Source of the DNA: Ptychomitrium polyphyllum
Lineage: Eukaryota
Reading direction: 5' to 3'
Assembly: GCA_973851085.1 (NCBI GenBank)
Contig: OZ316775.1
Span: forward strand, 15,190,001 to 15,254,000
Length of the DNA stretch: 64,000 nucleotides
Shown here: positions 1 to 61,600 of the stretch, piece after piece
Layout: every line of letters starts with the position of its first letter
Numbering within the stretch: the stretch's first letter is position 1
Notes under the pieces: model-generated
What the model saw: only the letters and a program-made list of their open reading frames with translations
Told to the model about the DNA's origin: nothing
Databases searched by the model: none
Position numbers and translations under genes: made by a program

Positions 1-3000
1 TAAGTTTTTCTTACAAAGTACTTGTTGTTGTAAAATGTATTTATAAAGCCAGCTTTAAAATATGAATTCTTCTATATTATACATGAATTATTTTTAATTG
101 ATGATTGGTTGAAATTTTATGTACAAACCATTTATTCTTAAGTTGACTTACAAAACTATCTTAAAGAACAAAAAAGTACATGTACTATGCATGTATTGAT
201 GTCTAAGCAATTAGAACTCAAAGTACTTTGCAATCTAGGACCTTCTGTACATATCAATTATATGTAGATATGTTTATAAGATTCACTTCAAGTCAAGAAT
301 GTACTTTCAAACAATTGTATTCATTATGTATTAAAAATTTAGAAGTTAAGGTGGTTGGCATTTGAAACTTGTTTATATATCAATTATATTGAAATGCACT
401 TATAAAAATGACTTTAAGACAAGAATATACTAATCTTATATATTACACAATAATTTATAAATCATTAGTAGTTAAAGTATCTCTATTTAAGATTTAGTAA
501 ATGTACATAGTATTTTAGATGTACATATAAGGCTAATCATATTAAAAAAAATCTAGCTGCATTTGCATGCTATTATAGATGCTATTATAATAAGTGCTTT
601 GATTTAAACAATTAGAAACTAAGCAGGTTTATGAAATTTTATACATATTTTTATTACAAAAAGAAAATTTTGCTATATTATTTACACTTTAAATTGTAAT
701 TAATCAAAATTTAGTTAATTGAAGAATTATGCGCATATAATATAGCTAGTTATTTTAATAATGTAACTTTATGCATTATGTTATACACATGCAAAAAAGC
801 AAATCTACTTATTTCAACAATTAATATGTATAAATTATTGGATTATAATTTATCACTTTGGAATATACATCATAATTAATATAAATTTGTACACATGTTT
901 TATATTTTTTTAATTCAAAAATTAAAATCTATACTAATTATATGATGATACACAAATAAAATATAAATTTTTAGGTTTAAAATTGAAATAGTTTTTATAA
1001 GATAAATAAGATATGCTTAAATTTTATTTTTTTTAAGAATCTAATTATGCTATTGTGACTTTACAATTTTATAAATTTTTTGACTTGTTTTGAGAAAGTT
1101 TGATATAATTAAGTTTTTAGTAGATTAATAAATAATAATAATGTAAAGATTTTTTGTTTTATAAAACTTGTCATTTTCATAAATAATCCTTCTTCCAAAT
1201 ACATAAAATTTGTCAACTTCTTTTTATGGATTTAAAATAATCTCTAAAATAAAAATATATTAAATAACCATTAAAAAGGTTTAATTTAAAATTTAAAATA
1301 TTTTTTAAAGAAGTATTTACTAAAAGCCAAAATTAATATGAAATTAGCCCATTATTTGCCAAAACAACAAGTACTTACCTTTTGAAAATAACAACCAGCA
1401 CCTTTGATTCACTAAGCCTTAACCACCAATGCTAAAATTTTGATGAATAATAGTAATATACATGATAATTTATAGTTTTTTTCAATGATGTTCATGGATC
1501 ATTAATAATAATAACAAATTTTTTGCCTTAAATGGTAAAAAATGAAGTTGTAACCATTTAGAGCCTTTTTTTGCTAAATAATTTAATTAAAAATTACTCT
1601 TTTATATTAGTTGCATCCATACAAACTCAAATCAATAAGAAAATTGTCTATAGAAGTGGTTTGTATATCAATAGCTACAGACATTTTACATATTTGTATA
1701 TAGTATTTCAATGGATTAGACACTATTGTCACAAAATTTGGTCTTTAAGGATGTTTTATAACAAAATTGACAACCTTATGTTGATTGAGCCTTGAAGGAG
1801 AATAAATCATTGGATATGTGAATGTCTATGTATTTTGTATTGTGCAATCCAAAGAAACTTAAACGAAGTCAATACCATGATACATTGAATGCAGCATTTT
1901 CCTATCACTTTTATCACCAAATAGGTGATGTATTTCCAGCTCCATGTTGCATGCTGGAAGAAGTGAATTTCAACAAGCAACATAAATGCTGTTGTATTTG
2001 ATTTAAATTATGTATTCTAGTGCATGCAAAATCTAGAGTTCATTGTAATACCTTGAATTCAAGTGAGCCATTCTAATTTCAATAAGATAGACAACAACAT
2101 CTATACTGTCTCGTGTCATTTCACATGAGATATGGTATCTAATTAAATATGTGTCATTTACCACATTAGTTTGTATCATAATGACAACAAAATCACATCA
2201 AATTGATCTAGATTAATATGTATTCAAATCATATTTTATGTGACCTTGATGTGATTTTGAAAACCAGTTTGATATCATTTTGATTTATGTTATTTTGGTA
2301 TCATTCTAGTTGTTTGAAGACATTTTAATGGGAGTTTGGCATTAATTTAATTTGTCTTATTTTAGCATCATTTTGATGTATCTTGTTTTGGCATCATTTA
2401 TGGCATTAAGTGTCAAGAAGTTGTCTATTACTGATTTCAATTATTGTCTTCAAGTTTACCAATGCGTGCAGTTGGAAAAGGTACCACTTACTGGAGGCAT
2501 TATTGAGACATCCTGCCAACCATGAAAAATACGGCAGAAATATCTCCAACCAGTCACACTTGTATCAATCGTAACAACCACTTCTTTATTTTATTGCAGA
2601 ATACAGCTCTATATAAGATATTGGATTTACCATTCACAAACCTTCAAGAAGTCATTGTTTGAGAAGAAACATTACTGAGCGTCCAGAGGAGAAAACCTTT
2701 GAGACTGGGCCTTTCCCTTCTTTGTACTTTTCTACTGTAATAATGTACAGTACATCTCACAAGGTCAGTGCATACCTGTGTAAACCCCATGATACCCAGT
2801 GTGATACCCTGCGCTGCACTACCTCTATATTCCTCCGACTGAGCACTACTGTGTAGTTTGCATTGACGTCTACATATTCTAATCCTTGGATGTGCGTGTG
2901 TTGTTCTCAGGCTTTCGTTGATTTGCTTTTCCAAAATTCAGCTGATGCATGCTAATGGTTCAAGCATCTAGGATATTTAACTGCACCGATAGACTTTTTA

Positions 3001-30775: not shown

Positions 30776-33700
30776 GGCAGGGTGGTAGTTTTCTACCCAG
30801 CGGCGGAGGGATCCATCTTGCAGGCATGGAGCTTCCAAAGCTGCCATAATCCATGATTCACAGTGCCTGCATCGACTGTGCCAGCTGCGCCCTGGCACTG
30901 CCTCTGTCCTACGTCTTGCAAGTCGCTCCTTTCTACGGTTCGGGGCGCTGTTCCCACCGGGAGGGGTGGCGAGGGAGATCATGCGGAATTTTCACACGGG
31001 CGGCGCGTTTCAGGGGCGGGGTTGACTGGTTGGCGGAATCCAGGTCAGCAGGTGGGTGATGGCGACTTCAATTGCCTGTGCCGCCGGTGCGGTGCCGGCT
31101 TGGGCGGTGTGGTGTCGGTCCTCATTACCGCGCGTTTTTTAATCTGTTGCGTTTCTATTTCCGTGGAGCCTCTCGTGTGGGAGCCTCTGGGGAACGTTGG
31201 AACGTGGAACTTTGTGCGGCAGTGTGCAAGGGTTGGGTGTCTCGTTCGGGTTTTCGAGGATTTTATCCCTTACCTCGTAAAGTCCGAGGATTTGAATGGG
31301 GCTGGAATGCAGATAGAGTGAGGATGGAATTGGCGATATGACAAAAACCGTTACAACGTAATACTTTGGAGGAATATTTCATAACTTTTACATTAATCAC
31401 GTCATTTTATTATAAAACTTTAAAAAGTTGAAATTCAATACTTTTTCTAAAATTTGTTTACAAACAAGACATTGACATTCATTGAGCAAAATCAAGTTTC
31501 TAAAAGTCAACAAAACCTTAATCATCTATAAATTTACATATTTAATATTTTCTTTTCTTTTTCTTTTCCTTCTGTAATGTATCAAATAGGAAATTTGTGC
31601 TTTTTCATTAAAATAATGCAATTACAAATTCATTTTTCATCAAAACAATTTAAATAAAAGTAATTGTATTTTAAATGACTAGTTTTATGGCTATAAGCAA
31701 ATATATAATTTTTTTAATTACAATACATTATAGCATCCCTTGCTTTTAATTTATAAAATGAACTTAAAATGTGGGAATCTTCAATGTATGATAATAAGGT
31801 GGTGAATATGACATTCAAAATGAGAAAAATGCAAGGTCTAATAAAGAATAATTTTAAGCAAGCATCACATTGCTCTTAATGAACAAGTAATGGTTACAAA
31901 ATATTTTTTAAATTCATTTCACGCTTCCTTATTACCTAATTATTACTCATTAAGTTTTCGAAAATGGACTCTATAACATTGTCCTTTACAAGAATTCTAT
32001 AGAAACATTCTTTAAGCATCTTTTTAATTCAACAATAAAACTTTTTAATCAACATAATTTAAGAAATTTTTCAAAAAGTGAAAATCCAAAAGTTAAGTAG
32101 ATAAAAATGTCATGTGTTCAAAATCTTAGGCCTAATGTTTTAAATCTTAAGTGTTGCATTAGTTAATTATAATTAAAAGTACATGCTTATTTGACATGTC
32201 TTATAAGCCATATCATTGATGGATTATATTTGAATCTTTCAAGTTCTTTAGATTATTTGACATTAAAGTTGAAAGTGGAGTTTTTCCAAAGTTAAGTATT
32301 GTTCCTATGAATGAATATTAAGAAAAAAATCTTTTTGAATATTTCATTTTATTATTATTTAATTGTGAAATGTTATTACTTAAAATCCACATTCATAATA
32401 ATAGTGAAGGTACTTAGCAATGATGACAAACTTCTACTTCAGTATAAACATTGTTCTTATTTATAATCAACCATTAGCATGATTATTAATTAATTATTGA
32501 ATCAAAACAAAAGAAAATTTATTCAATAATCACTATTTATTTTATCACATTTTTACTAAAACATTGAATTAATATAGGCCAAGAACTTTGAAAGCTATAA
32601 ATGAAAGAATGGAAGTGTCTTTATTATAAATCTTTCATTGGTATAACAAAGTTTTATATCACTATCAATCAAAGATCCAATTCTTGTTATAATACTTTTT
32701 ATGATATTTAAAATTTCAATGTTTGAACTAATATAATCATTTTAGATGTTCAAATTAATGCAAATATTTATAATAAAAAACCTTTGCATTAGCTCAAGCA
32801 TCTTATTATTTTATACCAAGCAAAGTTTTTAATTTATTTGTGAATCAAATCATCTTTAGTGAACAAAGTCTGATGCTAATTATTAATTTTTAATCTTTTT
32901 TCATAATTCTACATTCCATTGTTCATTTATGCATAAATTCCACACCAAAAATCACACAACTTTGAAAATTTTACTTATGTAGAAAACTAATCAATGCAAT
33001 TACATGCCAAATTACATAGCCATATCACTTAGAAATGCCATGATTTAATCTTTGAAATATGAAATCCTTACCTTAGAAGCTTAATAGATTTTTAAAACAT
33101 TTGAATTGCATTTTTTTTTAATCCATAGTCTCTTAAAAGTTTATTTAAAAAAATCATCACTTATCTTTTAATGCTAGCCACATTTAAAGGTAGAAAGGAC
33201 TTGATGCTATTGATTTTACTTGAACCTCTTGCATTTATGGAATTTTTTTAAATTTTTATAGACATTTGATTTATTAAATTACAAAAAACTATTGAAAGAG
33301 AAGCAAATCATTCTTTAAACGTTCTATTATGTTCCACAATAAGCCGTCATATCAACTTAAGTTAATGTTTAGGTGCCTACATTTATACAAAATTATTAAT
33401 TAAAATCCAATCAAATTACAAAAGATCATGTGATTGATAACATTAACTTGTGTTTGATTTCTAAAATTGAATTTTATACAAGAAATGTATTGTTGGCAAA
33501 AGAATGGTGCAATATAAAAATAAATATTTAAAAAAAATTTATATTAATGAAAAATAATCAACAAGTAGAGAATTATCATATGTTATTTTATACATGTACT
33601 CTGTGACTATATTTTTAGGAGTTAAACTATTATAGATCCATTATGCCTATTAGATTATGAAAATAAACGATTTGTATGGCCAAAACTAAATTTGAGTAAA

Positions 33701-35164
33701 TAAAATTTTCTTTAGCAATTTATATGGAGAAACTCATTTCATTTTCATTGCCGATTTTTTTACACTATTGAAGTTACTAAACAATTTTGTGGTAGTTTGA
33801 ATACATTGCATTGATATATAGTAAGAAAATCACTTTTTTTTTCCAAAATGCATATTATTCAAGAAATATTGCAATTAAGAACTTCATTAGATTTTAAAAT
33901 TGCACATGTACTAAAATTAAAAACTATGAATGACGTATATGGATTACAAAATAATTATGTTTATAAAGTTTAAAATGTCTTTAATTCTATAAAAGGGCAA
34001 AAATAATTGTTTGTCTTTTATTGCAATTATTATTTAAAAAGAAATTGACACTCTTTATGTACATATGAAATACAATGGTTTTATAAAAAATATCAACTTT
34101 ACTAATAAGATGAGAGTTTTATTTATTCATTTTACATTTTCTTGACAAAATTTCTTTCTAAAATAAATATTTAGCCATGAATTATCAATATTAAAATAAA
34201 AGAGTGAAATTAGACATTTAAAAAAAATTATAAATTAGTAATAACATTATAAAATATTTGCACTATATTTAGGCCTTCAAGATGTTTTGAATGAAAGTAC
34301 TAGAAAAGGATTGGAAATATTCCAAAAGCATTATAAATGATGTAATGGTTGTAATATATAATTGACATTTAAATTTAATCAAATATTATTACAACAACAT
34401 TTAAAAGAAAAGTAACATATCAATGTTTATGATTATAGAAGTTGTATAAGTATTCTTAATAAACAATTTAACAAAATCCATTAAGATCCCTTACTATGGT
34501 AATATTTTTTTTTTATTACTCCAAAATTACAATCATACATAACTTAGTTTAAAAGTAGAATGATGCAATATTGAAGAAACATCAAAGAAGTTTGTTCCTC
34601 TCTTTCATTTCTCAAATTTATTTTCTTGAAACAAACAAAGAAACCACAAACAACCCTTCTAAACGATAGGCGAAGGAGTTATTTACCCAGTTTTTAAATG
34701 TGAGAGTGAGTTGGACCATTTGACTGCCACGTTGAAGATTGTTGTGGAATTACTAAACAAATTGAGAATTCTGGTCATAAAACTTGCAATTTTCAACTCT
34801 AGTGAGTCTGGTCCCTGTATGTTACCGTACACTTCAACTTGCACACCACTGTCAGGATTGTCCTTCCACCTTTCGACTCCCTTGTCGTCAAGTTTCAGTC
34901 CAGTTTCTAGCAGCCCCCGTACCGCCCTTCAATGGGACCATGAACAGATACGACGCCACAAATTTGATTCCGATGGATGAACAGAATCCCAGAACCAACT
35001 GAACTGTCAATCGAAAACCTCACCTAAATCTTTAACTCCAGAGCGGTTTTCAATACCTCTGTCAGATGAATGGAGTAACCAAGGTTGGTGTGAAGTCTGT
35101 GCCTTGCAACACGAGGAGGCCGACGGCGTGAACTTCATCCAGTACTTTTCAGTAGATTCCTATA

Positions 35165-44828: not shown

Positions 44829-47513
44829 TCAGGTGAAATTCCCCACCGATGCCATCTGCGCCACTACTACACTAACCACCATGAACAAGACGTACCAGCT
44901 GATCAAGCACTTTCCCCAAATGCGTGTCACCTGAAACTTAGAAGAAGAAACAACACAAAGAGTCCCGAGCAAGTTCAGGGTGAGAAACCCAAAAGCAACC
45001 AAGATTCCCGGGTGGTGGTCTAACTGGTAGCCCACTGAGAAATCCTTAGCAGTTCGTAAGCATAAAGCTGACCCCAATCCTACCAGCATGTTGAACATAG
45101 GACCTGCAAAGCAACCGGCTACAGCCATTGTCGGTTGGCCAACCCTAGCTACAGCAACATCGGCCACGAGATCGCCAATGGAGTTCCCCCAAGCAAGCAC
45201 TGTTAATCCCAACAACGCTGGCGAGACCCCAAGAATGATCCCGAGTGTCACCAAACAGCCAAGCAGCTCGCCGGCAATAACAGATATCCAAAATACACTC
45301 ATTATAAAGGCAACTACTACTACTAGAAATTGGCCATGAGCAGGAGGCCGTTTCACAGCCAGGTAGTAAGCGGCCCCCATAAATGCTCCCTGGAGCAATA
45401 TGAGGACCCAAATAGGGAGTCGCAAGGATGGAGCCAGAAAGACAATGTGGCGATTGAGGGACACTAATGAAGTGGACATGTAGAGTATAAGCAGTGGGCA
45501 CAGCACCACGTTGGCCGTTCCATAGTTCCTACTCCATTTTGCTGGTTCGATTTCAGGTACCGTAGACTTCAATAATATTGTTACAGGCAGGTTCAATGCC
45601 CTTATCACCTGCCAAAAACAGAACGACTCTGAGGACCATATTAGCTAAAGCTGGCTATACATTTGTTATTCATATGCATGTCCGTTCATGTTTATGAGTG
45701 CTGTTCGTCAGGGAGTTAAAAGTCACAGCTTTGTCGTCTTTGTAGACATAGAAGTTTGATCAAGTCCTACTCAGGAAAAATTAACTCACATACGAGGTCC
45801 ACTGTAGCAGAGCTGAATACAGCACGCCAGAAATATGAAGTGGATGATAAAGCAAGAAATGAATATAATGAGCGCACCTCTTCTGTATTGAATAGTTCCG
45901 TGAACCCCCTTGCAGGGCTCGGAAACCAATCCCAGCACTTGTCCACTGAAATTACCACGGCTTCTGGTTCAGTCCCCGCTTTCTCAGATTCTCCAAATTT
46001 GAAGGGTGAGATATTCACTGTTACTTCAGCTTCCTCAGGCGTGTCCTCAATATTCAAAACTTTGAGAGAATCCTTCAACTGCTTCGAGCTCGTTTCAATC
46101 TTCTGCACGACTTCGGTATCCATCTCAGTAGTAGCACCTTTGGGAGCTTGACTGTTTGTGGGAATAGAATCCACCTCTTTCTTGTCGGTACAAAGTACGA
46201 CGATGACAAAGACCACGTAGAAAGAAACCATCCCTACTGCTTGCCAGAACACAATTTCTCCTTTCAGATATATAATGAAAAAAAGACACACTGCTCCAAG
46301 GTAGAACAATACGTCTCGAATGAAGGGCATAGGCTGCACAGAGAAGGGCGCGGCTGCCAGAGCCACTGATCCAACCACGAAGGCGGACACAAACGTTCCC
46401 GCACTCAGAATGGCACTGAATCCAATCCTCGAATTATCACCTCCAATTGCAGCCAGAGAGGCAAAAATATCAGGTGCTCCATTCCCAAGAGCAAGCAAGG
46501 TCACTCCACCCATACTTGGTGTCAACCCCAGCATCTCCACCAACCGCCGAACTACAGGAGAGAAGTAATTCTCTGCTGTTTCTGCTAAGATATAGAAGGC
46601 CAGTATGAGCACTGTCACCAACACAGGAACCGAAATCCACTTGGCTCCCCCCATCCCACAGTAATGGAAGACGAGATAGTTCACCATACTTTGCCCACTA
46701 TCATCCGCGCAATGCACACGCGCCATTTGACATCGCACAAGTGCAGGCTCCGCAGCAACACTCTCACATTGCCTACGCATAGCTATCATGTCAGAAAGGT
46801 AATTTATAGAGTTTGCGTCGAAAAACCCCACAATCCAAATTTCCTGCAACCTAACCTCTCAATTTCTAACCTAATTTTGCGTGACGTTGTCGAAAGCAAA
46901 CATTGCTCTTCACTAAAAGCATGCTTCTAAATTAGCCCATAGAGCACTTTAGCATGCAAAAAACTATCAGAACCTCAACATTTTCTCGATGAAAGCGTTA
47001 AAAGCAACAATAGAGTCCCAGATCCATGCAACAGTACATTCTCCCTGACACGACCAACTACAAGATTGAAAATTTCACCACGGAAGCAAAACCCCTTCAG
47101 CTGTAGCCTGATCTCAACAATACTATCACACCCACAATTCGCTCCAACTCAGTCATTCTCCACGACACAACCCTGAACCCCAATATAAAAGCAAGCCCAC
47201 TTCCAAGACGCCTGCACTCCTCCAAGAAACGGGAAATGAAAGGGAAAAACTCCACAACTAGTCTAGAACCCGGCGCACTACCATACCTGCTAGAGTCAAT
47301 TTGAGCTACTTGAACTCCTTCCTGAGGATCCAGAGCTTCCAGCAAACCCCTATGCTGGGTCACAGCCACCCGAGCTCCCTGAACCCACCAAGTATACAGC
47401 GACGCCAGAAGGAAGAACACCAAAATGCCAGCCCCCTTGACCTTGAACCGGAATGCGAGAGACGACGATCTTGTGCTGCCATGGATCCCTCCCATGATGC
47501 TCACGGCCGCCAC
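44829..47513 (-). CDS. CCX: Cation/calcium exchanger (CCX family, CCX5-like); exons 47513-47287, 46772-45878, 45608-44829
   Basis: Alpha-1 repeat GVTLLALGNGAPDIFAS and alpha-2 repeat GLTVLAWGNSIGDLVAD..AGCFAGPMFNML, many hydrophobic segments, in-frame GT-AG junctions. Confidence 0.93.
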
Positions 47514-48956
47514 AGGGGCAGAGGAGCATGGCTACAGACATCCCCCGGAGCACATGTCTGAGGAACACAACAGACTCACAGAGCGCGCAGATTGCATCTT
47601 CACAAGAAAGAGTGCATTAGGTCTTAGAGCAACAATAATTGACATGGCTCTCATCTATAAACGGAATGATGCATCGTATGCTCTACTCTCGTGATGATCT
47701 TCCTACTGCATGCCAGACATCACTTGCATAACTCGCGTCTCCATCTCTGTCCTTCCGCACATCGGTGCTCCATCGTGGACGACCGAGACTCGTCAAAGAA
47801 GTTGATTGACATTATGTGTAGCAGTGAGTCCTGAAAGACGATGATTTCAATATTAAATTTTCTAAAACATTTTCTGAGCAACGCAGACGAGTCGAATATA
47901 GATTTTCCTGGCAACTTCAAGCAAATCTAAAAGATTCGCAGTTGATTTAATAAGAGGTAAAGTTGTGAAATAATGCAGAAATGACCGGGCCTTCGGGGTA
48001 GAGATGTCGTCGTGACTTAGACGTACGTATTTTCATCCGGATACATACAAGCCGCACGTTTTATGTGCATTCTGGAGGAGATAATTGGGATGGAACTCAC
48101 AGTAGGAAAGCATGGGGTATCCTTGGACGCTGGAGAGAGTCCTGCGTTTTGTTGGAACCCTGGGCGTGAGCATTTTGGAAGTTGGGGTTGCAGTTGCTAC
48201 CTTGTGAGCCTCTCTGCTCGCAAATTTGCTGCTGAATTCTCGCCCAACGTTCTTTTGCATGGTTCACGTCGGCCTTTGAAGCGGTTGAAGTGTTCTTTTC
48301 CCTTGTGTATGTCTTGACCTCACTTCGCATGTTGTTGCCAAATAGAGCTGAGGGGCACTCGTTTCTCTCGGACTTATGTTAGTGCGGTTGTTAGGATATT
48401 CTTCTGGTTGTCTTGGATGAGCAAGTCTTGTTCCAGAGCTTGCTGGCGGGAGAGCTCAACAGGGTTGAGGCTTATGTCGGTGAAGTTCGGTGAACATTAG
48501 TGGTGAGCTTGCGGCTGGCCTTTCGTTATGTAATTTTCGAGATAAAGGTCCGATTTCTATTAGTTGTACATGGGCCTGGGTGGATGTACTTACTTTCTCT
48601 TGTGCACTTACACCGAGTGTTCTTCATACCCGACAACTTCACTTATATGCCCATTTCAGTTTAATTTTGATGGCTAGAACAGATAGAGGTAGGACTGCGT
48701 CGCCACCGAATGTTTTGCTTGCTAAAACGTTATTTGCTTGTATGCATGTTGTTTCCTGACTTAGTCAGTTTGAGAAAGATAGTCGGTTGGTCTTCGGATA
48801 TGGATGATCTCGTTGATCCGTTGTGGAGGGATGGTGGATTACCGCTTTTCGTTTCTTTACCTTCAACATCCGAAATAAAGAGTTCCGAGTTTCATTATCT
48901 GGTCCATGAAGCAGGGCTAAGTCTGACTTGCCCTGTGCTTGTGACACGTTCGACAC

Positions 48957-49070
48957 ATGTGCCTACCACCCATATTGAGCATTCAAAATCGGCTACAATT
49001 GCCCAAGGCTCTCATAAATTGAGAGAGAGCAGTAGCCGGTTCCGACTGACCATGGGGATAGTGGGTACGT
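48957..49070 (+). ncRNA. Putative pre-miRNA hairpin 1; candidate mature 5p UUGAGCAUUCAAAAUCGGCUA (48975-48995)
   Basis: 5' arm 48957-48996 pairs imperfectly with 49032-49070 (cggctac/gtagccg; atgtgcctac/gtgggtacgt). About 6 mismatches across the 21-mer, so looser than hairpins 2 and 3. Confidence 0.55.
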
Positions 49071-49123
49071 ACTTCTGGAGAGTGCTGAGCGTCTGCACAC
49101 TGCTCCCGACCTGGTGAATAATT

Positions 49124-49216
49124 GATGCTCATTACCCACGTTGAACATTCAAAATCAGCTACACCAGTTTCAATGGCGCAGTTGGTTTTGAATGTCTGCT
49201 GGGGATGGTGAGTATT
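49124..49216 (+). ncRNA. Putative pre-miRNA hairpin 2; candidate mature 5p UUGAACAUUCAAAAUCAGCUA (49141-49161)
   Basis: 49124-49166 pairs with 49174-49216 around a 7-nt loop. 3 mismatches and 4 G:U pairs across the 21-mer. Confidence 0.72.
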
Positions 49217-49262
49217 TGACCTCGGAAAATGGAGCTTCTTGACCTGATCCGGTTGTTCATTC

Positions 49263-49369
49263 GTACTCACTCCCCACATCGAGCATTCAAAGTCTGCTAC
49301 AATCGTCGGGTCATCCATTAAATGGACGATTGTAGCAGGTTCTGAGTGCCCGATGCGGATCGTAAGTAC
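49263..49369 (+). ncRNA. Putative pre-miRNA hairpin 3; candidate mature 5p UCGAGCAUUCAAAGUCUGCUA (49279-49299)
   Basis: 45-nt arms (49263-49307 and 49325-49369) pair without gaps. 2 mismatches and 3 G:U pairs across the 21-mer. Perfect ctgctacaatcgtc/gacgattgtagcag upper stem. Confidence 0.78.
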
Positions 49370-49434
49370 TGACTTTGGAAGGAGCCTGAGCTTCTGCACC
49401 TAGCCTGATTATTCACTTGTACTTATCACCCACA

Positions 49435-49518
49435 TTGAACATTCAAAATCTACTACGATCGTCTCAAAACATTAATGGCATGAGATGATTGTGGCGGATG
49501 TCCTATCGGGATGTTTGA
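49435..49518 (+). ncRNA. Putative pre-miRNA hairpin 4, possibly degenerate; candidate mature 5p UUGAACAUUCAAAAUCUACUA (49435-49455)
   Basis: atctactacgatcgtctca pairs with tgagatgattgtggcggat using G:U. After an asymmetric bulge, ttgaacattc pairs with ggatgtttga. Confidence 0.5.
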
Positions 49519-49852
49519 GCATTGGCTGTTGAAATTTGCCTGAGCTTCTCCTGTAATTGAAGAATAGATTTAGAAACTTTACTATGGAGTTCGTAAAGAT
49601 GTCTCGCTCCACCTTTGGCATGGCATGGTTCGAGATTAAAACTCTTTAGTGAAAAGCTAGTGACATTATAGAAATGATTGGTTAAAGAAATTTAGCTTTG
49701 TGATTGGATAAAGAAATGATCGGATGATTTGCAGTCGGTCCAGTAGGCCTTAGAGTGATTTGAGATGCCACTTTTGCAACATTTTTATACAATCATAAGT
49801 GACTGCGGCACCAGGCTAGACCAGGTCAAGTAAATCATATTTGTCTAAAAGC

Positions 49853-51867
49853 CTAGTGAGTGCTGATGTAATTTTCTGCCCATACCCAAAGCTTTCTCTG
49901 TAAGTCTACGGCCACAGCTTTGCCTTTCAGAGGGAATTCATTACAATCTACGAAGTATTTCCCAGTTACTCCGTTGAGCTGAGAATTTGTTGCGACGTAC
50001 ACTTGTGATGCAGCGCCCTAACAAACGTCAATTCTCGATGGGTCAATTACAGGTTATCAAACGAACTCAATTGTCTTAAATAAGCAATTCCAGTTGGTGA
50101 TAGTAGTAGGCAGTTGGCTTGACAAAAAGTGTATATAATTAGTGATAATATTTCTCAACATACCTGTTCCAGGTTCTTGAGTATGATCGAGGGTATCATA
50201 TCTGGAGAAGGAAAACGGTGTTAATGTACCCGGATCGCCTCATGTTGACTATGGAATTACCGAAAGGGATGATTGATACACCTGTTAATTTCTTAGGCGG
50301 TCCAGGTTCTGAAAGGAATGAGCTCACAAGGTTTACCTGAGAGGAAGCCCAGAAATCCGTCTAGGTGGACAAGCTTGGTTCTGACGGCGCCTGGGTGAAG
50401 TGTGTTGACGATAACGTGGGCACCTTCTTCCTGTCCAGCGTCCCCGATGTTCCAGTCCATGGGTTAGTAACCCAGCTCTCTCTCAGAAACAAGTTCCTAA
50501 TGAAAATCCTCCATATGATAGAGATCTTGGTTCGTGTACTTTCTCACCTTTAAACGCACAGCGAGCTCTCTGCAATGTAGAATGCTAGCAAGCTTCGATT
50601 GACCATAGCCCGAGAATCCCCAGATCCTGTAGGGACCAATTTACCGCAACATGTCGTCAAAACCTCACTCCTATGGCAGAGAGGTGTGACCTTATTTCAA
50701 GGAAATATTTCGGAGTATGAATCGATGACCCAGTCAGTTAGCCTTACTCATTTGTGCCGATTAGTTTGTCAAATGCTATTCCACCTTTAGGAGTGAAATT
50801 GTAGATTGCACCAGAAACGATTACAATACGTCCTTCAGTACCACTTTCTTTGGCAGTTTCCTTCATGGTGTCGAGCAGCAAGTCCGTCAGCAAGAAGTGA
50901 CCTGCATTTCAGCCAGGAGAACCCATGGGCCACATCATTGGATAAGCTATTTTACAAATTTCTAGAAACTCAAACAGAGTAGTTCTCAAAATGCAATTCT
51001 CTCATCATTACAAGCCTTGTTGCTCATTCCAGTGGTAGTGTCCCCATCGACAGGCACTTACCCAAAAAGTTTGTTGCAAACATGAGCTCCAAGCCATGAC
51101 GTGTATTCTTCGGGCCTTTGCACAAGGCTATCCCTCCATTATTACTGCGATGAGCAAATGATCCAATAAGCAAATCTTCCTCATCGCACACAGGCGGTGT
51201 AAACTATGAAAAGTACCGTTCTGGCAACAATCTAAGGTAACCAATTTGTAACTCGCTATGTTTACGTGAGAAATTGGGGACGGACATGGACTATAGAAGA
51301 TGGAAACGTACACAAGAATATTGAGCGGCAGCTTTGAATCCTTGAATTCGGCAGCAAACTTGCGAACGGACATGAGGTCGCTTAGGTCCAAATGCATCAG
51401 GACAAGGCGTGCACCTGGGTTCTCCTTCAGAAATTCTGACTTCACTGCTTCTCCACGGTTCAAATTCCGGATTGCAAGGATTACTCGGGCTCCTCTCTTT
51501 GTCAGCACCCGTGCTGTCTCCATTCCAATCCCAGCCGTCGCACCTGCCACCCACATGTAAGAGGGCATCTCCTTGGGCAACTTATCCCTTGCTCTCGGTT
51601 GCTACCTAGATGCAGAGCAGTCATCTCTATGGTAGCTACATACAGTCCTCGTCAATTTCAACACTGAAAAGCTGTTGGCGATTTTATTTGAAGCAAGTCA
51701 GCTAGTCACATCGTGGCACAACACTGATTCTATCAAAAAGAGTCTAGATATGTACCTGTAACAATAGCTGTGTAATGTTTAAGGCTGAGACCTTCAGTGA
51801 CATCTTCAGCTGTTGAAGCTGACCCAAATCCGCTTTTCCCCTGAGAACCCCTGGCGTAGCTCCACAT
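49853..51867 (-). CDS. Short-chain dehydrogenase/reductase, Tic32/retinol-dehydrogenase-like, 8 exons
   Basis: Hand splicing gives an intact frame: MWSYARGSQGKSGFGSASTAEDVT..TAIVTGATAGIG, LVNNGGI, FATNFLGHFLLT, YGQSK (YxxxK), NTLHPGAVRT, QGAASQVYVA..GKYFVDCN..KLW..* (TAG 49855-49853). Confidence 0.92.
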
Positions 51868-53068
51868 CCCCCCCATCTTTTCAAAGTTCCTTCACCACTC
51901 AATAAGAAATAAGAACTTCCACAGGCTCCGTGCACTCACTCACATGAAAAGATGGGAAAAGCTTCAATCAATTCAGCCTCAAAACCTTCCAAATCAAGCG
52001 TATTTACAACCTTAGAAATCAAGAGAACAATACAATCAATAACGACATGTTTCTAGTAACCCAAGAATGCATTGTCAGTTTTCGTTGTTGTCTTGATTTG
52101 CTGTAACGTGATCGATCTTTGCAAGAACATAGACCATATAATCTGAACATTCGAGCTGACTTGGATATGCTCCGAACATTCGAGCCCGTCCTTTGACGAA
52201 CCTAGACACTGAATCACCGGGGATCTCTGACCCATGTTAGCAAGCGGTAGAATCTCTTTCCAGTGCACTAAAAGTCACAATGTTCGTGCACGAGCTCGAT
52301 GGACCACGTTCTGTTAAAACGTTAACTCCGAAATTGGAGGCCAAGATATCAAGACTGGAAGATTTCCGGCCTTTTTTGAGGCAGCGTAAATGAACAAGTC
52401 AAGGCCAATATTTGAAAAGCATCTACCTTCGAACGTTCACTCTGCTTAAATTTGGAGTGTGCCTGTAGTGGACATTTGAAACCCAGATGGTTACTCATTG
52501 GCCGATTTTATATTTCTAGTTTAGTTAATGGAGGACTGTGATGCTCTGTGCGCGTATTGACAAGAAACCGATAAAAAATTTGAGCTCGAATATTCACTTG
52601 GGAAACTTGTGTCAACCTCTGATGTGATTGCATTGTAATTCAAGCTGTTGTATCTAACTCGTCATACACAGAAGGTGCTCTATAAGATAACTAGGTATAA
52701 AAGAACAGTCTTGCAGTCGACTAAATGAACACTTCCGCGACAAGAACATCTCGCTATAACAACAGCAGTAGACAGGAGTCACAGAAGTGTAGAGAATTGA
52801 GGGACAGGTCTAGGCGATATTTGAACTTGCGCTACTGGATTCACAGTCCAATGTCCTGATCGCTAAACAACGGGACCAGGTGGCACAGTAACCGCGACTG
52901 ACCTATTTGGAACCCTAAAGCTCAACCAAAAGCAATTTGATAGAAACGACTTTGGATTCTGAGTTTCAATTCTTCTTCAAACCGCATGGGTTTTAGAAGA
53001 GATAATATGCATGTGAACCAGAGGAAAGGGTACAAAATTTGCTGCTATCGAAAGTACAGAACCTATGT

Positions 53069-58758: not shown

Positions 58759-61600
58759 TCAAACAGTCAAAATCCTTGGAAATGTTGGCTTCTGAGCTCC
58801 CAAAACGGGGCCACTCGAGTCCGGGAAGAACTCGTGACCGGGAATGCTGGCGATGCTGCCGTCCTCTCCAATAGTGTAAGGGTAGCGCAGCAAATGCCCC
58901 TGCATGTCAACAATGGGCTCCGGCCGCGAGTACTCCTCCCAGTACCGGCTCGCAAGCTCATTCACCCTCTTCATGCACTCTCGCGTCCATGGCCGGTCAA
59001 ACACTTCCTCCTGGTAGCCTAAGTGCTCGAACCAGGTGGACACCCTGAAGCCATGTACTGATCCTCGTGGAACGCCGTCGCCTGAGTGTGCCATGGTGTG
59101 GTGCGGCTGGAACGCTCCCATGGCCATCTCTGTGTCGCGGCCGCCGTCCATCGATCGCTGGTTGATGTTTGCCGAGCCGATTATCAGGTACTCATCGTCC
59201 ACTGCCATATTCACATAAAACCCAACATTCAGTCTTCATTGTAGGATCAAAGTTGTTGTAGGATCGAAGTTGACAGCCCAATTCACACAAAAAGGAACAT
59301 TCAGCCTTAGTTGCAACTAGATGTAGAATTGAAGTTGAGTCAAATTCACATTCAAAAACCAACATTCACTGTTCATTGCCGCTTGTTATAGGGTTGATAT
59401 TGACGAAGCTCCCGGTTATTTGTTGTACACTTACCAACCATCATCTTCGCATGGCAGTAGATCATGAACCTTCGATTCTCTTGCGACTTGTGGTAGTCTG
59501 TATCCGGAGTCGGCCTCTGCGGCGGGACGTACTCGTTAGGTTTCACGGTCTCCCGGTTGCCGAGGCAATAGAAGCTGAGGTAGTCTGTCATGTCCTCGTG
59601 AACTCGGTTCATGTCAATCAAAGCACTGTGAATGATCCGATACATCATCTCCAAGGTTTTCCGATGAAAAAGCATGATATCCTGCCCGGACAAGCTCGTC
59701 GGAGCGCCGTCGGGCCACAGCGGATTCACAATGTAGACGCTGAAATCCTCACCGGCACGAATCTTGCTGGCGACTTTTAGGGCGATCTCCAGAGGGATTA
59801 ACTGCGCTGCCGACTCGTCGCGATAGTCCGGTTCCCACATGTGAGAGCTCCCGAGGAAATACTGATTCTCAATGTACAGAAAGTGCTTCGCTCTTCGAAT
59901 GGCTTCGAGGTACGCATCTTGAATGCTTCTCTCGGTGACATTTCCGGCTGCCTGGCGAACCAGCCCTGCTTTAAAGATTTCGATCTGGTTCTGCGGTAGG
60001 TCTACACCCGAGGTTTCGTCAAGGGAGCGAAACAGCTGCACGTTCCATGATTCTGGGTCATCCTCTGTTGTGGCGGGTGTGGGCGGGCAGAAGACCTCCC
60101 TGTTGGCTATGGACACCAGGAGATGCTCCTTCATCTTCCCGGTCTGCTTCAGCCACCGCTGGCGGAAATTCTCATGGACGTCCCACGCGATCTCGCCTTC
60201 GAGTTTGGAGTAGCAATCGTGCCAGGGCTCCCGAGGGCCGCCGTGTACCAATGCGGCCCCGACAATGCTCCCCTGGTGAAAGTCGTTTTTGAAGAGAGTA
60301 TCGAGGTACTGGAACAGAGGATGTGAAGGAAAGCAGTAGCGCCCGTCGCAGAGGTCTATTCCGCCTTGGAAAGCTAGTACTCTTCGTGGAGCTGGATGGG
60401 AGGATGCCGACGCGGGTGCGTCCATACACACCACCTTCTGGTGATGCGTAAAGATGAAGCCCGCGACCAGCTTGAATTCCTTCGCTTCAGGATTCCGTGG
60501 ACATAGGAAGCAATGGACCTTCGTGTTGCGGAAGAACGCAAATGTGTTCTCGTCGTAGGAGTGCATGATGCCGGTGAGGAGGTGAGTATTGTCGGTTTTG
60601 TCGTCCCACACGAGCATTAGCACCGTGACGCCCTCGTTGGCTTTGCGGACTAGGAGCTCCCCGAGCGTCTCCCCTAAGTTGCCAGGCAGGGGCTTACCCT
60701 CCTTGTCGCGCACCAGGGCGATGGTAGCGTTCACCGACCAACCAGCGACATAGATGAAGTGCTTGGCGTCGTTCATGGCGTGGTAGACGGCTTCCCATCC
60801 CTTCTCAGGCATGTAGTATTGGCCATTATCAAGCATAATCTTAGGGTTGAATGTCTCATCGATGTGGGAGTTCTGGTAAGGGACGACTTTGCAGCCCTTC
60901 CGCATCGGAAAGAGCGCGTGGGAGACACCCTCGAAAGCGCCGCCAGCCACACCCGCGTTCCAGTGCCTGTCCTTTATGGCTTGCGTAAACTGCAGCACGA
61001 TGCGAAACTTTGCAATCCCCTCGTGGTCGCCTGCGAGCTCGTACCACCCGTCAATCTTCTCCCCATCGAGGACGTGCTCCGTGACGGGGATCTTTGCTCG
61101 TCCCAGGAAGACAACACCGGAGTACACGAACACGTCGATGGAAGTCACCGAGTGCCCGCAGAAGATTCGGAACGACTCTTCGAACTTCATCACCTTCTTC
61201 CTCTTGATTGACCGCGTGCGCGCCACTTCCACAAGGGAGAGCTCGACTGTGGCTATCACGCCGCCTAACAGGTCGTCTGCCTTCTGCAAACACCCAAGCG
61301 GCCATAGCCATTGCTGGTATTAGCCTCTAATTATAAGAGAAGGTGAACGGAGACGAAACGGACGTCAGGTGGCGAGAATGAATGTACCCGGAACAACGAA
61401 GGCAGTCCGGATGTGTCGACCTCGTCGAGAGTGATTTCGAGGATTCCGTGAAGCAGCCTCGGCGCTGGAGCTTCCGCTGGCGGTATTCCTGGTGAACCAG
61501 GGAGGCGCTTGTGCTGCTGCTTGACAGGGATGCAGCCACAACACTTGCTCATTGATTTGCCATATTTGCCACCCATCGACTTGCCATGGCCGTTACCCAT
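58759..61600 (-). CDS. PLD: Phospholipase D, C2-type (PLDalpha-like); exons 61600-61388, 61283-59435, 59201-58759
   Basis: Two HKD motifs (THHQKVVCMD and, across intron 2, HAKMMVVDDEY..GSANINQRSMDGGRDTE), plus IYVAGWS, VLMLVWDD, GPREPWHD, YIENQYFLGSS and an N-terminal C2-like region. Confidence 0.95.
59209..59378. repeat. Degenerate ~70-bp tandem repeat (about 2.5 units) inside PLD intron 2
   Basis: attcaca..aacattca motifs near 59209, 59281 and 59344, plus an internal ttgtaggatc(a/g)aagttg doublet. Confidence 0.65.

What the first reader, a model, noticed from the sequence alone, without database searches (positions are those of the whole stretch)
48957..49518. Four-hairpin polycistronic miRNA-like cluster whose mature sequences vary at codon-wobble positions of a kinase-like motif (VADFECS)
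Seen in sequence: four ~140-165 bp units each fold back on the + strand. Many departures from perfect complementarity are G:U pairs on + (they would be A.C mismatches on -), which favours + as the folding strand. The best-conserved part of each unit is a 5'-U 21-mer in the 5' arm: UUGAGCAUUCAAAAUCGGCUA, UUGAACAUUCAAAAUCAGCUA, UCGAGCAUUCAAAGUCUGCUA and UUGAACAUUCAAAAUCUACUA, each followed by C. They differ at positions 2, 5, 14, 17 and once at 18. Positions 2/5/14/17 are all third codon positions of the antisense frame GTA GCN GAY TTT GAA TGY TCR (V-A-D-F-E-C-S), so the changes are silent apart from one Ala-to-Val. Established knowledge: miR482/2118 shows this three-nucleotide periodic variation because it tracks the P-loop codons of the large NBS-LRR family. 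Inference: this locus makes a set of miRNA variants that jointly silence an expanded gene family through its conserved xADFE (DFG-loop-like) kinase motif. I do not recognise these sequences as a named miRNA family.
Basis: partly seen in the sequence, partly recalled or inferred. Interest (0 to 1): 0.92.

Follow-up and report, generated by a model that had tools for sequence, protein, structure and literature searches.

The report
Moss microRNA cluster born from kinase
A moss carries four tandem hairpin units whose sequence traces back to a piece of a protein-kinase gene, and they likely make small RNAs that would silence a large, little-studied moss kinase family, much as miR482 restrains disease-resistance genes in seed plants.

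Summary
The four units, their 21-mers and the wobble-only variation are real. The window is from a moss. It is an expanded moss family with DFE/DYE in place of DFG, and VADFECS is its commonest motif (43 of the 120 best hits). The sequenced sample itself holds a member that matches unit 1's 5' arm over 41 nt. New here: each unit is a kinase-gene fossil, an antisense copy of the motif, then a decayed sense copy running on into WRAPEIL in register. The antisense 21-mers kept 42 of 42 first and second codon positions; the sense copies kept 31 of 42. That fits birth by inverted duplication, tandem amplification and selection on the antisense RNA. Caveats: unit 4's partner arm is broken, unit 1 is borderline, the G:U strand argument fails (23 vs 19), no RNA data exist here, and miRBase could not be searched. 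Verdict: probable lineage-specific polycistronic miRNA, a convergent miR482-like system on a new target family.

The parts
48050..48950 (+). putative 5' part of the primary transcript, divergent from the CCX5 gene; no protein family found
   Evidence: GC skew +0.165, AT skew -0.27, like the one + strand gene compared and opposite to five - strand genes/regions; ORF 48671-49114 has no Pfam match. Transcription inferred, not shown.
48957..49072 (+). hairpin unit 1 (borderline duplex); 5' arm is an antisense copy of kinase codons I-V-A-D-F-E-C-S-x-x-V-V-G-T
   Evidence: 41-nt match (48959-48999, 7 differences) to another contig of the same sample whose flanks read as kinase; family HMM E=7e-4 among 3228 six-frame segments
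48975..48995 (+). candidate mature 21-mer 1 (5' U); predicted star 49035-49055
49070..49100 (+). linker 1: decayed sense kinase sequence (x-F-W-R-A-P-E-I-L-Q codons)
   Evidence: anchored test p=0.0027; frame reading
49124..49217 (+). hairpin unit 2 (sound duplex, 17-nt lower stem)
49141..49161 (+). candidate mature 21-mer 2; predicted star about 49181-49200
49217..49246 (+). linker 2: more decayed sense kinase sequence
   Evidence: anchored test p=0.13, not significant alone; shares the linker motif of the other units
49263..49369 (+). hairpin unit 3 (sound duplex, 16-nt lower stem)
49279..49299 (+). candidate mature 21-mer 3; predicted star 49335-49355
49371..49400 (+). linker 3: decayed sense kinase sequence (reads WKEPELLH)
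   Evidence: anchored test, 0 of 2980 random anchors score as high
49419..49524 (+). hairpin unit 4, degenerate: 6-7 nt missing from the star arm; carries the one non-silent change (nt 18)
49435..49455 (+). 21-mer 4 (probably not diced precisely)
49524..49645 (+). linker 4 and downstream kinase fossil, continuing through LKNR to a CYEILT-like segment, with stops
   Evidence: 0 of 2980 for the first 10 codons; 1 of 1485 for the next 31 columns; the same test after units 1-3 gives p=0.45-0.70
44832..47480 (-). left neighbour: cation/calcium exchanger CCX5 gene (not part of the element)
49853..51900 (-). right neighbour: short-chain dehydrogenase gene, 3' end facing the cluster (not part of the element; limits approximate)
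   Evidence: Pfam adh_short on 51131-51601; further exon-like frames down to 49853, read by eye

Best explanation
The locus is four tandem hairpin units built from a fragment of a moss DFE-type protein-kinase gene, and it is likely a polycistronic microRNA gene whose two or three sound hairpins would release 21-nt guides predicted to direct cleavage of many kinase mRNAs at the VADFECS codons. Shown: each unit is an antisense copy of about 14 kinase codons, a loop, and a decayed sense copy that runs on into the WRAPEIL codons; only the last unit continues further into kinase sequence; the antisense 21-mer is the conserved part and varies almost only at wobble positions. Inferred: a short inverted duplication arose in a kinase gene copy and the block was then amplified to four; the + strand is transcribed from the region next to the CCX5 promoter; DCL1 cuts base-to-loop about 16-18 nt above the stem base; the 5'-U guide loads into AGO1; the variants together cover more synonymous versions of the site than one guide could. 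Speculative: the targets are immune or stress kinases kept low for the same reason NLRs are.
For: Target family exists: 11 of 20 metagenome matches are kinases, and 10 of those 11 read V-A before D, a position my pattern left free (several are near-duplicates). 396 proteins at E<=1e-30; among the best 120, VADFECS is in 43 and a [VIL]xD[FY]E[CS][ST] motif in 117; all 25 that name an organism are Ceratodon (23) or Physcomitrium (2). Same sample: one other contig matches 48959-48999 with 7 differences in 41 nt, and its loose ends, translated by hand, read FDPILDKFLV before and RYWRAPEIL after. Fossil: linkers match GFWRAPEILQ in the register set by the hairpin in 3 of 4 units (p=0.0027, 0.13, 0/2980, 0/2980), and the sequence after unit 4 matches the next 31 columns (1/1485). 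Selection on the antisense strand: 42/42 vs 31/42 first and second codon positions in units 1-3 (nominal Fisher p=2e-4; copies share ancestry); mean pairwise identity is 86% for the 21-mer, 65% lower stem, 49% star (65% without unit 4), 34% upper stem and loop. Lower stems of 18, 17 and 16 nt fit the roughly 15-nt stem of base-to-loop precursors (PMC3787264, passages). 6 of 31 consensus pairs show a two-sided change. Upstream skew matches + strand transcription. Against 11 kinase sites from other mosses, no unit scores <=4.5 on more than 6, the four together on 10.
Against: No transcript, small-RNA or cleavage evidence. Unit 4 fails and unit 1 is borderline as a duplex. G:U does not favour + and unit 3 folds better on -. 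No site from another moss scores below 3.5; 4 of 11 mismatch at nt 11 and 6 of 11 at nt 2 with every unit. 43 of 119 parsed motifs are DYE, which would mismatch at nt 12. Only one kinase contig of this sample was seen, and the places of its 7 differences were not listed, so family size and pairing quality in this species are unknown. A blind window-wide scan does not rank the sense fossils at the top; they are significant only in the anchored test. The wobble statistic rests on 5 variable sites.
Confidence: 0.7

Rival explanations
1. Hairpin-siRNA or proto-miRNA locus: the transcript is diced imprecisely into mixed siRNAs that silence the same kinases in bulk.
For: Origin by inverted duplication of the target, the stage that yields siRNAs in the model summarised in PMC5026261 (passages); unit 3 is a long, nearly perfect stem.
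Against: Conservation is focused on one 21-22 nt register with 5' U, 16-18 nt above the stem base; stems are short and mismatched.
Confidence: 0.12
2. Relic: a once-active miRNA cluster or a kinase pseudogene that is now silent or decaying.
For: Unit 4 broken, unit 1 borderline; sense copies carry stops and frameshifts.
Against: Even unit 4's 21-mer is 17-19/21 identical to the others while loops are 34% alike; units 2 and 3 remain sound; neutral decay does not explain the arm asymmetry.
Confidence: 0.1
3. The - strand is the functional one: a decoy RNA bearing target-like sites, or a small protein with repeated activation-loop peptides, so that the silent changes reflect peptide selection.
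For: A 138-codon open frame at 48986-49399 (-) holds two motif copies in frame; unit 3 folds better on -; the SDR gene reads toward the cluster on the - strand.
Against: 34 stop-free frames of 138 codons or more occur in the window; units 1 and 4 lie outside that frame; conservation stops at the 21-22 nt edge while flanking codons change; no Pfam match; upstream skew favours +.
Confidence: 0.05
4. MITE or other transposon-derived repeat.
For: Short inverted repeats in tandem; DFE kinases can sit beside transposon genes (L001).
Against: One contig covers the stretch at flat depth, and only one other contig per run matches any part at 80% or more, a kinase gene (87% of X2 read); no other copy in the window; the arms are explained by kinase codons.
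Confidence: 0.01

Closest known systems
miR482/2118 and other NBS-LRR-targeting miRNAs (PMC5026261, passages read)
   Same: Targets a conserved encoded motif of a highly duplicated family; family members vary at the third codon position; some such precursors keep extended similarity to the target, as expected from inverted duplication.
   Different: Different sequence and target (kinase DFG-position motif, not the P-loop); found in a moss, whereas that paper traces NBS-LRR small-RNA control back to gymnosperms; the variants sit in one 0.6-kb tandem array; 22-nt length and phasiRNA triggering untested.
[quoted passage not shown] 2004 model, as summarised in PMC5026261)
   Same: Arms homologous to the target beyond the mature sequence.
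   Different: Here the sense fossil also extends outside the hairpin (linkers and about 100 nt downstream), and the whole block was amplified fourfold.
Rfam MIR1031 (a moss family, by recall) and MIR7533
   Same: Weak structural hits in the cluster (14.8 and 25.8 bits).
   Different: Far below gathering scores (100 and 230); MIR1031 aligns across two units rather than to one hairpin; treated as chance.
PDB 6lba and 6ka4 (recalled as Arabidopsis MLKL2 and MLKL3; the calls name them only 'Protein kinase family protein' and 'F22L4.1 protein'), as relatives of the target family
   Same: Best sequence matches of the Physcomitrium member P0188 among solved structures (E 6e-24, 6e-23); second and third for the family profile; some longer DFG-type relatives carry MLKL_N or DUF1221.
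   Different: The DFE kinases keep HRDLK (104 of 120); the P0188 model shows no N-terminal four-helix bundle; Foldseek returned generic kinase folds. An immune role is not shown.

Membership tests
plant MIRNA gene (criteria recalled from Axtell and Meyers 2018; paper not held) | single-stranded foldback under about 300 nt | tested here: met
   units of 94-116 nt, z -3.0 to -8.2
plant MIRNA gene | miRNA/miRNA* duplex with at most about 5 mismatches and at most 3 nt in asymmetric bulges | tested here: inconclusive
   met by units 2 and 3 (2 unpaired each); unit 1 borderline (6 unpaired in nt 1-19); unit 4 not met (6-7 nt deletion)
plant MIRNA gene, base-to-loop class | [quoted passage not shown] | tested here: met
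   18, 17, 16 nt in units 1-3; absent in unit 4's best fold; rule from PMC3787264 passages
plant MIRNA gene | precise, replicated 20-24 nt miRNA and star reads with 2-nt 3' overhangs | not testable with these tools
   no RNA holder listed
plant MIRNA gene | target slicing opposite nt 10-11 | not testable with these tools
   no degradome or genome held
any Rfam 15 miRNA family | score at or above the family gathering threshold | tested here: not met
   none in the window; best 25.8 bits vs 230
named miRBase/PmiREN moss family | mature sequence match | not testable with these tools
   no such database; no hit for 14-17 nt cores in paper full text or for shorter cores in four supplements, none of which proved to be a full sequence catalogue
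miR482/2118 superfamily | complementary to the NBS-LRR P-loop codons | tested here: not met
   complement reads VADFECS, the DFG-position motif of a kinase family
miR482/2118 superfamily | variation concentrated at target wobble positions | tested here: met
   4 of 7 vs 1 of 14, p=0.025
miR482/2118 superfamily | 22-nt product that triggers phasiRNAs (recalled) | not testable with these tools
   nt 22 is C in all four units and would pair with the first base of the Val codon; unit 3's duplex is symmetric, unit 2's star is about 1 nt shorter
MITE | many dispersed copies | tested here: not met
plant MLKL (for the target family) | N-terminal HeLo four-helix bundle | tested here: not met
   P0188 model and Pfam scan; one member modelled
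moss kinase-NLR (for the target family) | kinase fused to NB-ARC | tested here: inconclusive
   no NB-ARC among 35 long relatives, a search the tool calls weak evidence

The most novel reading that the evidence does not exclude
Mosses independently evolved a miR482-style brake, a tandem set of wobble-variant miRNAs born from their own target, on a moss-expanded, MLKL/tandem-kinase-related family with DFE in place of DFG. This would mark that uncharacterised family as a costly immune or cell-death repertoire and show that miRNA dampening of such repertoires is not a seed-plant invention. The locus preserves each step of its birth.
Probability: 0.3. Interest if true: 0.82.

Novelty: new variant of a known kind. 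Interest (0 to 1): 0.63.

Why it matters
If expressed, it is an independent repeat of the miR482 logic (conserved motif, duplicated family, wobble-tracking variants) in a bryophyte and on a kinase instead of an NLR, so it tests whether that logic is general. It points to a large moss kinase family with an altered DFG motif, tandem-kinase members and MLKL-like neighbours, for which my searches found no functional study. It is also a rare readable record of miRNA birth: parent-gene fragment, inversion, fourfold amplification and one decaying copy in 0.7 kb. The guides are a ready tool to knock down many members of the family at once in Physcomitrium.

Tried and rejected
No genome is held for this window, so no genome-wide target scan. 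No RNA holder listed: not evidence either way. The letters of this species' own target sites remain unread. G:U strand argument rejected. A by-eye resemblance of 48800-48950 to the kinase segment before the motif was tested and not supported (p=0.29 and 0.74). Blind scans for the sense fossil were not significant (E 0.3-7; ranks 8-11 of the 12 shown). The 9 non-kinase metagenome matches were dropped; 8 distinct ones were folded and none looked like a miRNA hairpin (MFEI -0.09 to -0.69), so no homologous cluster in another moss was found; that scan would only have caught unit-1-like arms. No match of the 21-mer pattern in viral contigs. Rfam hits below threshold rejected. Foldseek gave only generic kinase folds. 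The tree is the quick one, on a subset (every third of the 120 near hits, the 35 long hits, 7 chosen extras; 105 domains), midpoint-rooted, with no MLKL rows: it shows a clade of 65 rows holding 56 of 57 DFE-labelled domains (SH-aLRT 98) but no order of events. Literature: ten full-text searches showed no paper on this miRNA or kinase motif in their listings. Two papers were not held; the main Physcomitrium miRNA catalogues were not seen, and bioRxiv supplements are closed, so a prior name cannot be excluded. Five look-ups of earlier scan findings returned nothing.

Full report
1. Setting. The window is gene-dense plant DNA. An exon at 44832-45644 (-) is cation/calcium exchanger 5, 90% identical to the Physcomitrium patens protein and 75-76% to Sphagnum proteins, so the organism is a moss, probably a true moss (inference). 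The cluster lies in a gap between CCX5 (- strand, start near 47480) and the 3' end of a short-chain dehydrogenase gene (- strand). No genome is held. Two runs of one sample hold the stretch; neither is on record as RNA.

2. The observation. Four units are spaced 166, 138 and 156 nt apart. The 21-mers are as quoted and each is followed by C. They vary at 2, 5, 14, 17 and 18, which is 4 of 7 third-codon positions against 1 of 14 others (p=0.025). The pattern occurs 4 times in the window, 0.09 expected. Folding is far better than shuffles. Two details fail. G:U pairs on + (23) barely outnumber A.C (19; p=0.32), and unit 3 folds better on the - strand. Unit 4 lacks 6-7 nt in its 3' arm opposite the 21-mer, and unit 1 has 6 unpaired bases in nt 1-19; units 2 and 3 have 2 each.

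3. The target family exists. Unit 1's antisense frame runs on past the 21-mer as S-I-W-V-V-G-T. A codon pattern for D-F-E-C-S-x-x-[VI]-[VI]-G-T found 20 metagenome loci; 11 are kinase frames continuing into G/R/A-F-W-R/Q, and 10 of the 11 have V-A before D, which the pattern left free (the six I scanned match Pfam kinase models; several are near-duplicates). A protein search from one of them gave 396 proteins at E<=1e-30. Of the best 120, 43 contain VADFECS and 117 a [VIL]xD[FY]E[CS][ST] motif; 104 keep HRDLK or HQDLK. All 25 that name an organism are Ceratodon (23, two assemblies) or Physcomitrium (2). In 89 aligned members D and E are invariant, F/Y split 56/33. Longer relatives include tandem and multi-kinase proteins, kinase-AAA fusions, and DFG-type proteins with MLKL_N or DUF1221; none of 35 lists NB-ARC. 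DFE-type domains mostly form one clade in a quick tree. The nearest solved sequences to a Physcomitrium member are 6lba and 6ka4 (second and third for the profile), which I recall as Arabidopsis MLKLs. The model of that member has no four-helix bundle and Foldseek shows only generic kinases. So the family is MLKL-related by sequence but does not pass as MLKL, and its function is unknown.

4. The same sample has a member. Laying the two runs on 48600-49800 at 80% likeness gave the locus itself at flat depth with no variants, and one other contig per run, matching 48959-48999 with 7 differences in 41 nt. Its loose ends, translated by hand in the antisense frame, read FDPILDKFLV before and RYWRAPEIL after. 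That is a DFE kinase gene, found without my pattern. The match extends 16 nt below and 4 nt above the 21-mer. It also rules out a high-copy repeat. Where the 7 differences fall was not listed, so the pairing with this gene is not known.

5. The locus is a kinase fossil. The family profile's three best hits among 3228 six-frame segments of the window are the antisense arms (E 7e-4, 2e-3, 0.04). The lower stems keep first and second codon positions of the kinase: 10 of 11 in unit 1, 8 in units 3 and 4, 6 in unit 2, against L017 (background 3e-5, 1e-3, 0.03; partly circular for unit 1, since the pattern came from it). On the + strand the 3' arms and linkers read as decayed sense sequence, for example AVGFECLLGMVSI*PRKMELLD in unit 2 and WKEPELLH after unit 3. 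Blind scans do not rank these pieces at the top. With the start fixed by the hairpin's own pairing register, the ten codons after each arm match GFWRAPEILQ in units 1, 3 and 4 (p=0.0027; 0 and 0 of 2980 random anchors) but not unit 2 (p=0.13). The next 31 columns match after unit 4 only (1 of 1485; p=0.45-0.70 after units 1-3). A resemblance I saw upstream was not supported. Reading: a short inverted copy arose beside a sense kinase fragment, the block of hairpin plus WRAPEIL codons was amplified to four, and the last copy keeps the original downstream sequence.

6. Selection acted on the antisense 21-mer. In units 1-3 the antisense copies keep 42 of 42 first and second codon positions of VADFECS, the sense copies 31 of 42, with a stop and amino-acid changes (nominal p=2e-4, copies not independent). 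Mean pairwise identity is 86% for the 21-mer, 65% for the lower stem, 49% for the star (65% without unit 4), 34% for upper stem and loop. Pairing is kept through two-sided changes at 6 of 31 consensus pairs (four sequences, weak). Lower stems are 18, 17 and 16 nt, near the roughly 15 nt described for base-to-loop precursors in Arabidopsis (PMC3787264, passages). The 900 nt upstream have the skew of a + strand gene (one + gene for comparison), and + is also the fossil's sense strand.

7. Likely mechanism. Shown: anatomy, origin by homology, conservation pattern, existence of the family. Inferred from established miRNA biology (recalled): Pol II transcription, DCL1 dicing, AGO1 loading of 5'-U guides, slicing inside the Phe-Glu codons. 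Against 11 kinase sites from other mosses, each unit scores <=4.5 on 6, the four together on 10, but none below 3.5; 4 sites mismatch at nt 11 and 6 at nt 2. DYE members (43 of 119 parsed motifs) would mismatch at nt 12. The guides would therefore hit a subset of the family. Confidence 0.70; rivals are an imprecise siRNA hairpin (0.12), a silent relic (0.10), a - strand decoy or peptide (0.05) and a MITE (0.01).

8. Comparison. It works like miR482/2118: PMC5026261 (passages) describes wobble-position diversity, birth from inverted duplication of duplicated NBS-LRR genes, and traces that control to gymnosperms. It is not a member, since the target motif differs. No Rfam family is met. miRBase could not be searched; full-text and supplement searches found no matching sequence, but none of the supplements was a full moss catalogue. 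For context I read passages of PMC11218826 (large NLR sets and kinase-NLRs in mosses), PMC9950082 (plant MLKLs in TNL immunity, described across seed plants), PMC1838911 and PMC5054160; none describes this locus in the passages seen. Other papers were seen as search listings only.

9. Verdict. A real, single-copy, probably functional polycistronic miRNA locus with two sound hairpins, one borderline and one broken, aimed at a real moss kinase family and carrying its own birth record. The principle is known; the lineage, target and tandem layout appear new. Expression is the missing proof. Novelty: new variant of a known kind. Interest 0.63.

Noticed in passing
window 52806-52877 (-): Rfam tRNA match at 34 bits (gathering 29) that ARAGORN does not call; possibly a tRNA-derived relic.
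   Followed up: no
window 48213-48239 and 51344-51370: 27-nt inverted pair, 85% complementary, between the cluster's upstream region and an exon of the SDR gene; may be chance.
   Followed up: no
window 48986-49399 (-): 138-codon open frame holding two VADFECS copies in frame, because two spacings are multiples of 3; no Pfam match.
   Followed up: yes
window 49178-49300: Weak Rfam MIR1031 hit (14.8 bits, gathering 100) spanning two units.
   Followed up: partly
L001:149-4344; L013:132-1121: A DFE kinase lies next to an hAT-like transposase frame in L001 and near retroelement-like frames in L013 (read by eye); the family may spread with transposons.
   Followed up: no
P0133-P0144, P0261-P0279: Moss tandem and multi-kinase proteins (up to four domains), mixing DFE/DYE and DFG domains; P0277 and P0278 fuse a DFES kinase to DUF7025 and an AAA domain.
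   Followed up: partly
alignment A2: Glu replaces the DFG glycine in 89 of 89 members while the catalytic-loop D, K and N are invariant; whether these are active kinases is open.
   Followed up: no
window 59376-61319 (-): 648-codon frame with no Pfam match beside a phospholipase D C-terminal exon; probably part of that gene.
   Followed up: no
window 1-2000 and 32001-34000: Very AT-rich stretches (GC 0.22-0.23) between gene blocks.
   Followed up: no
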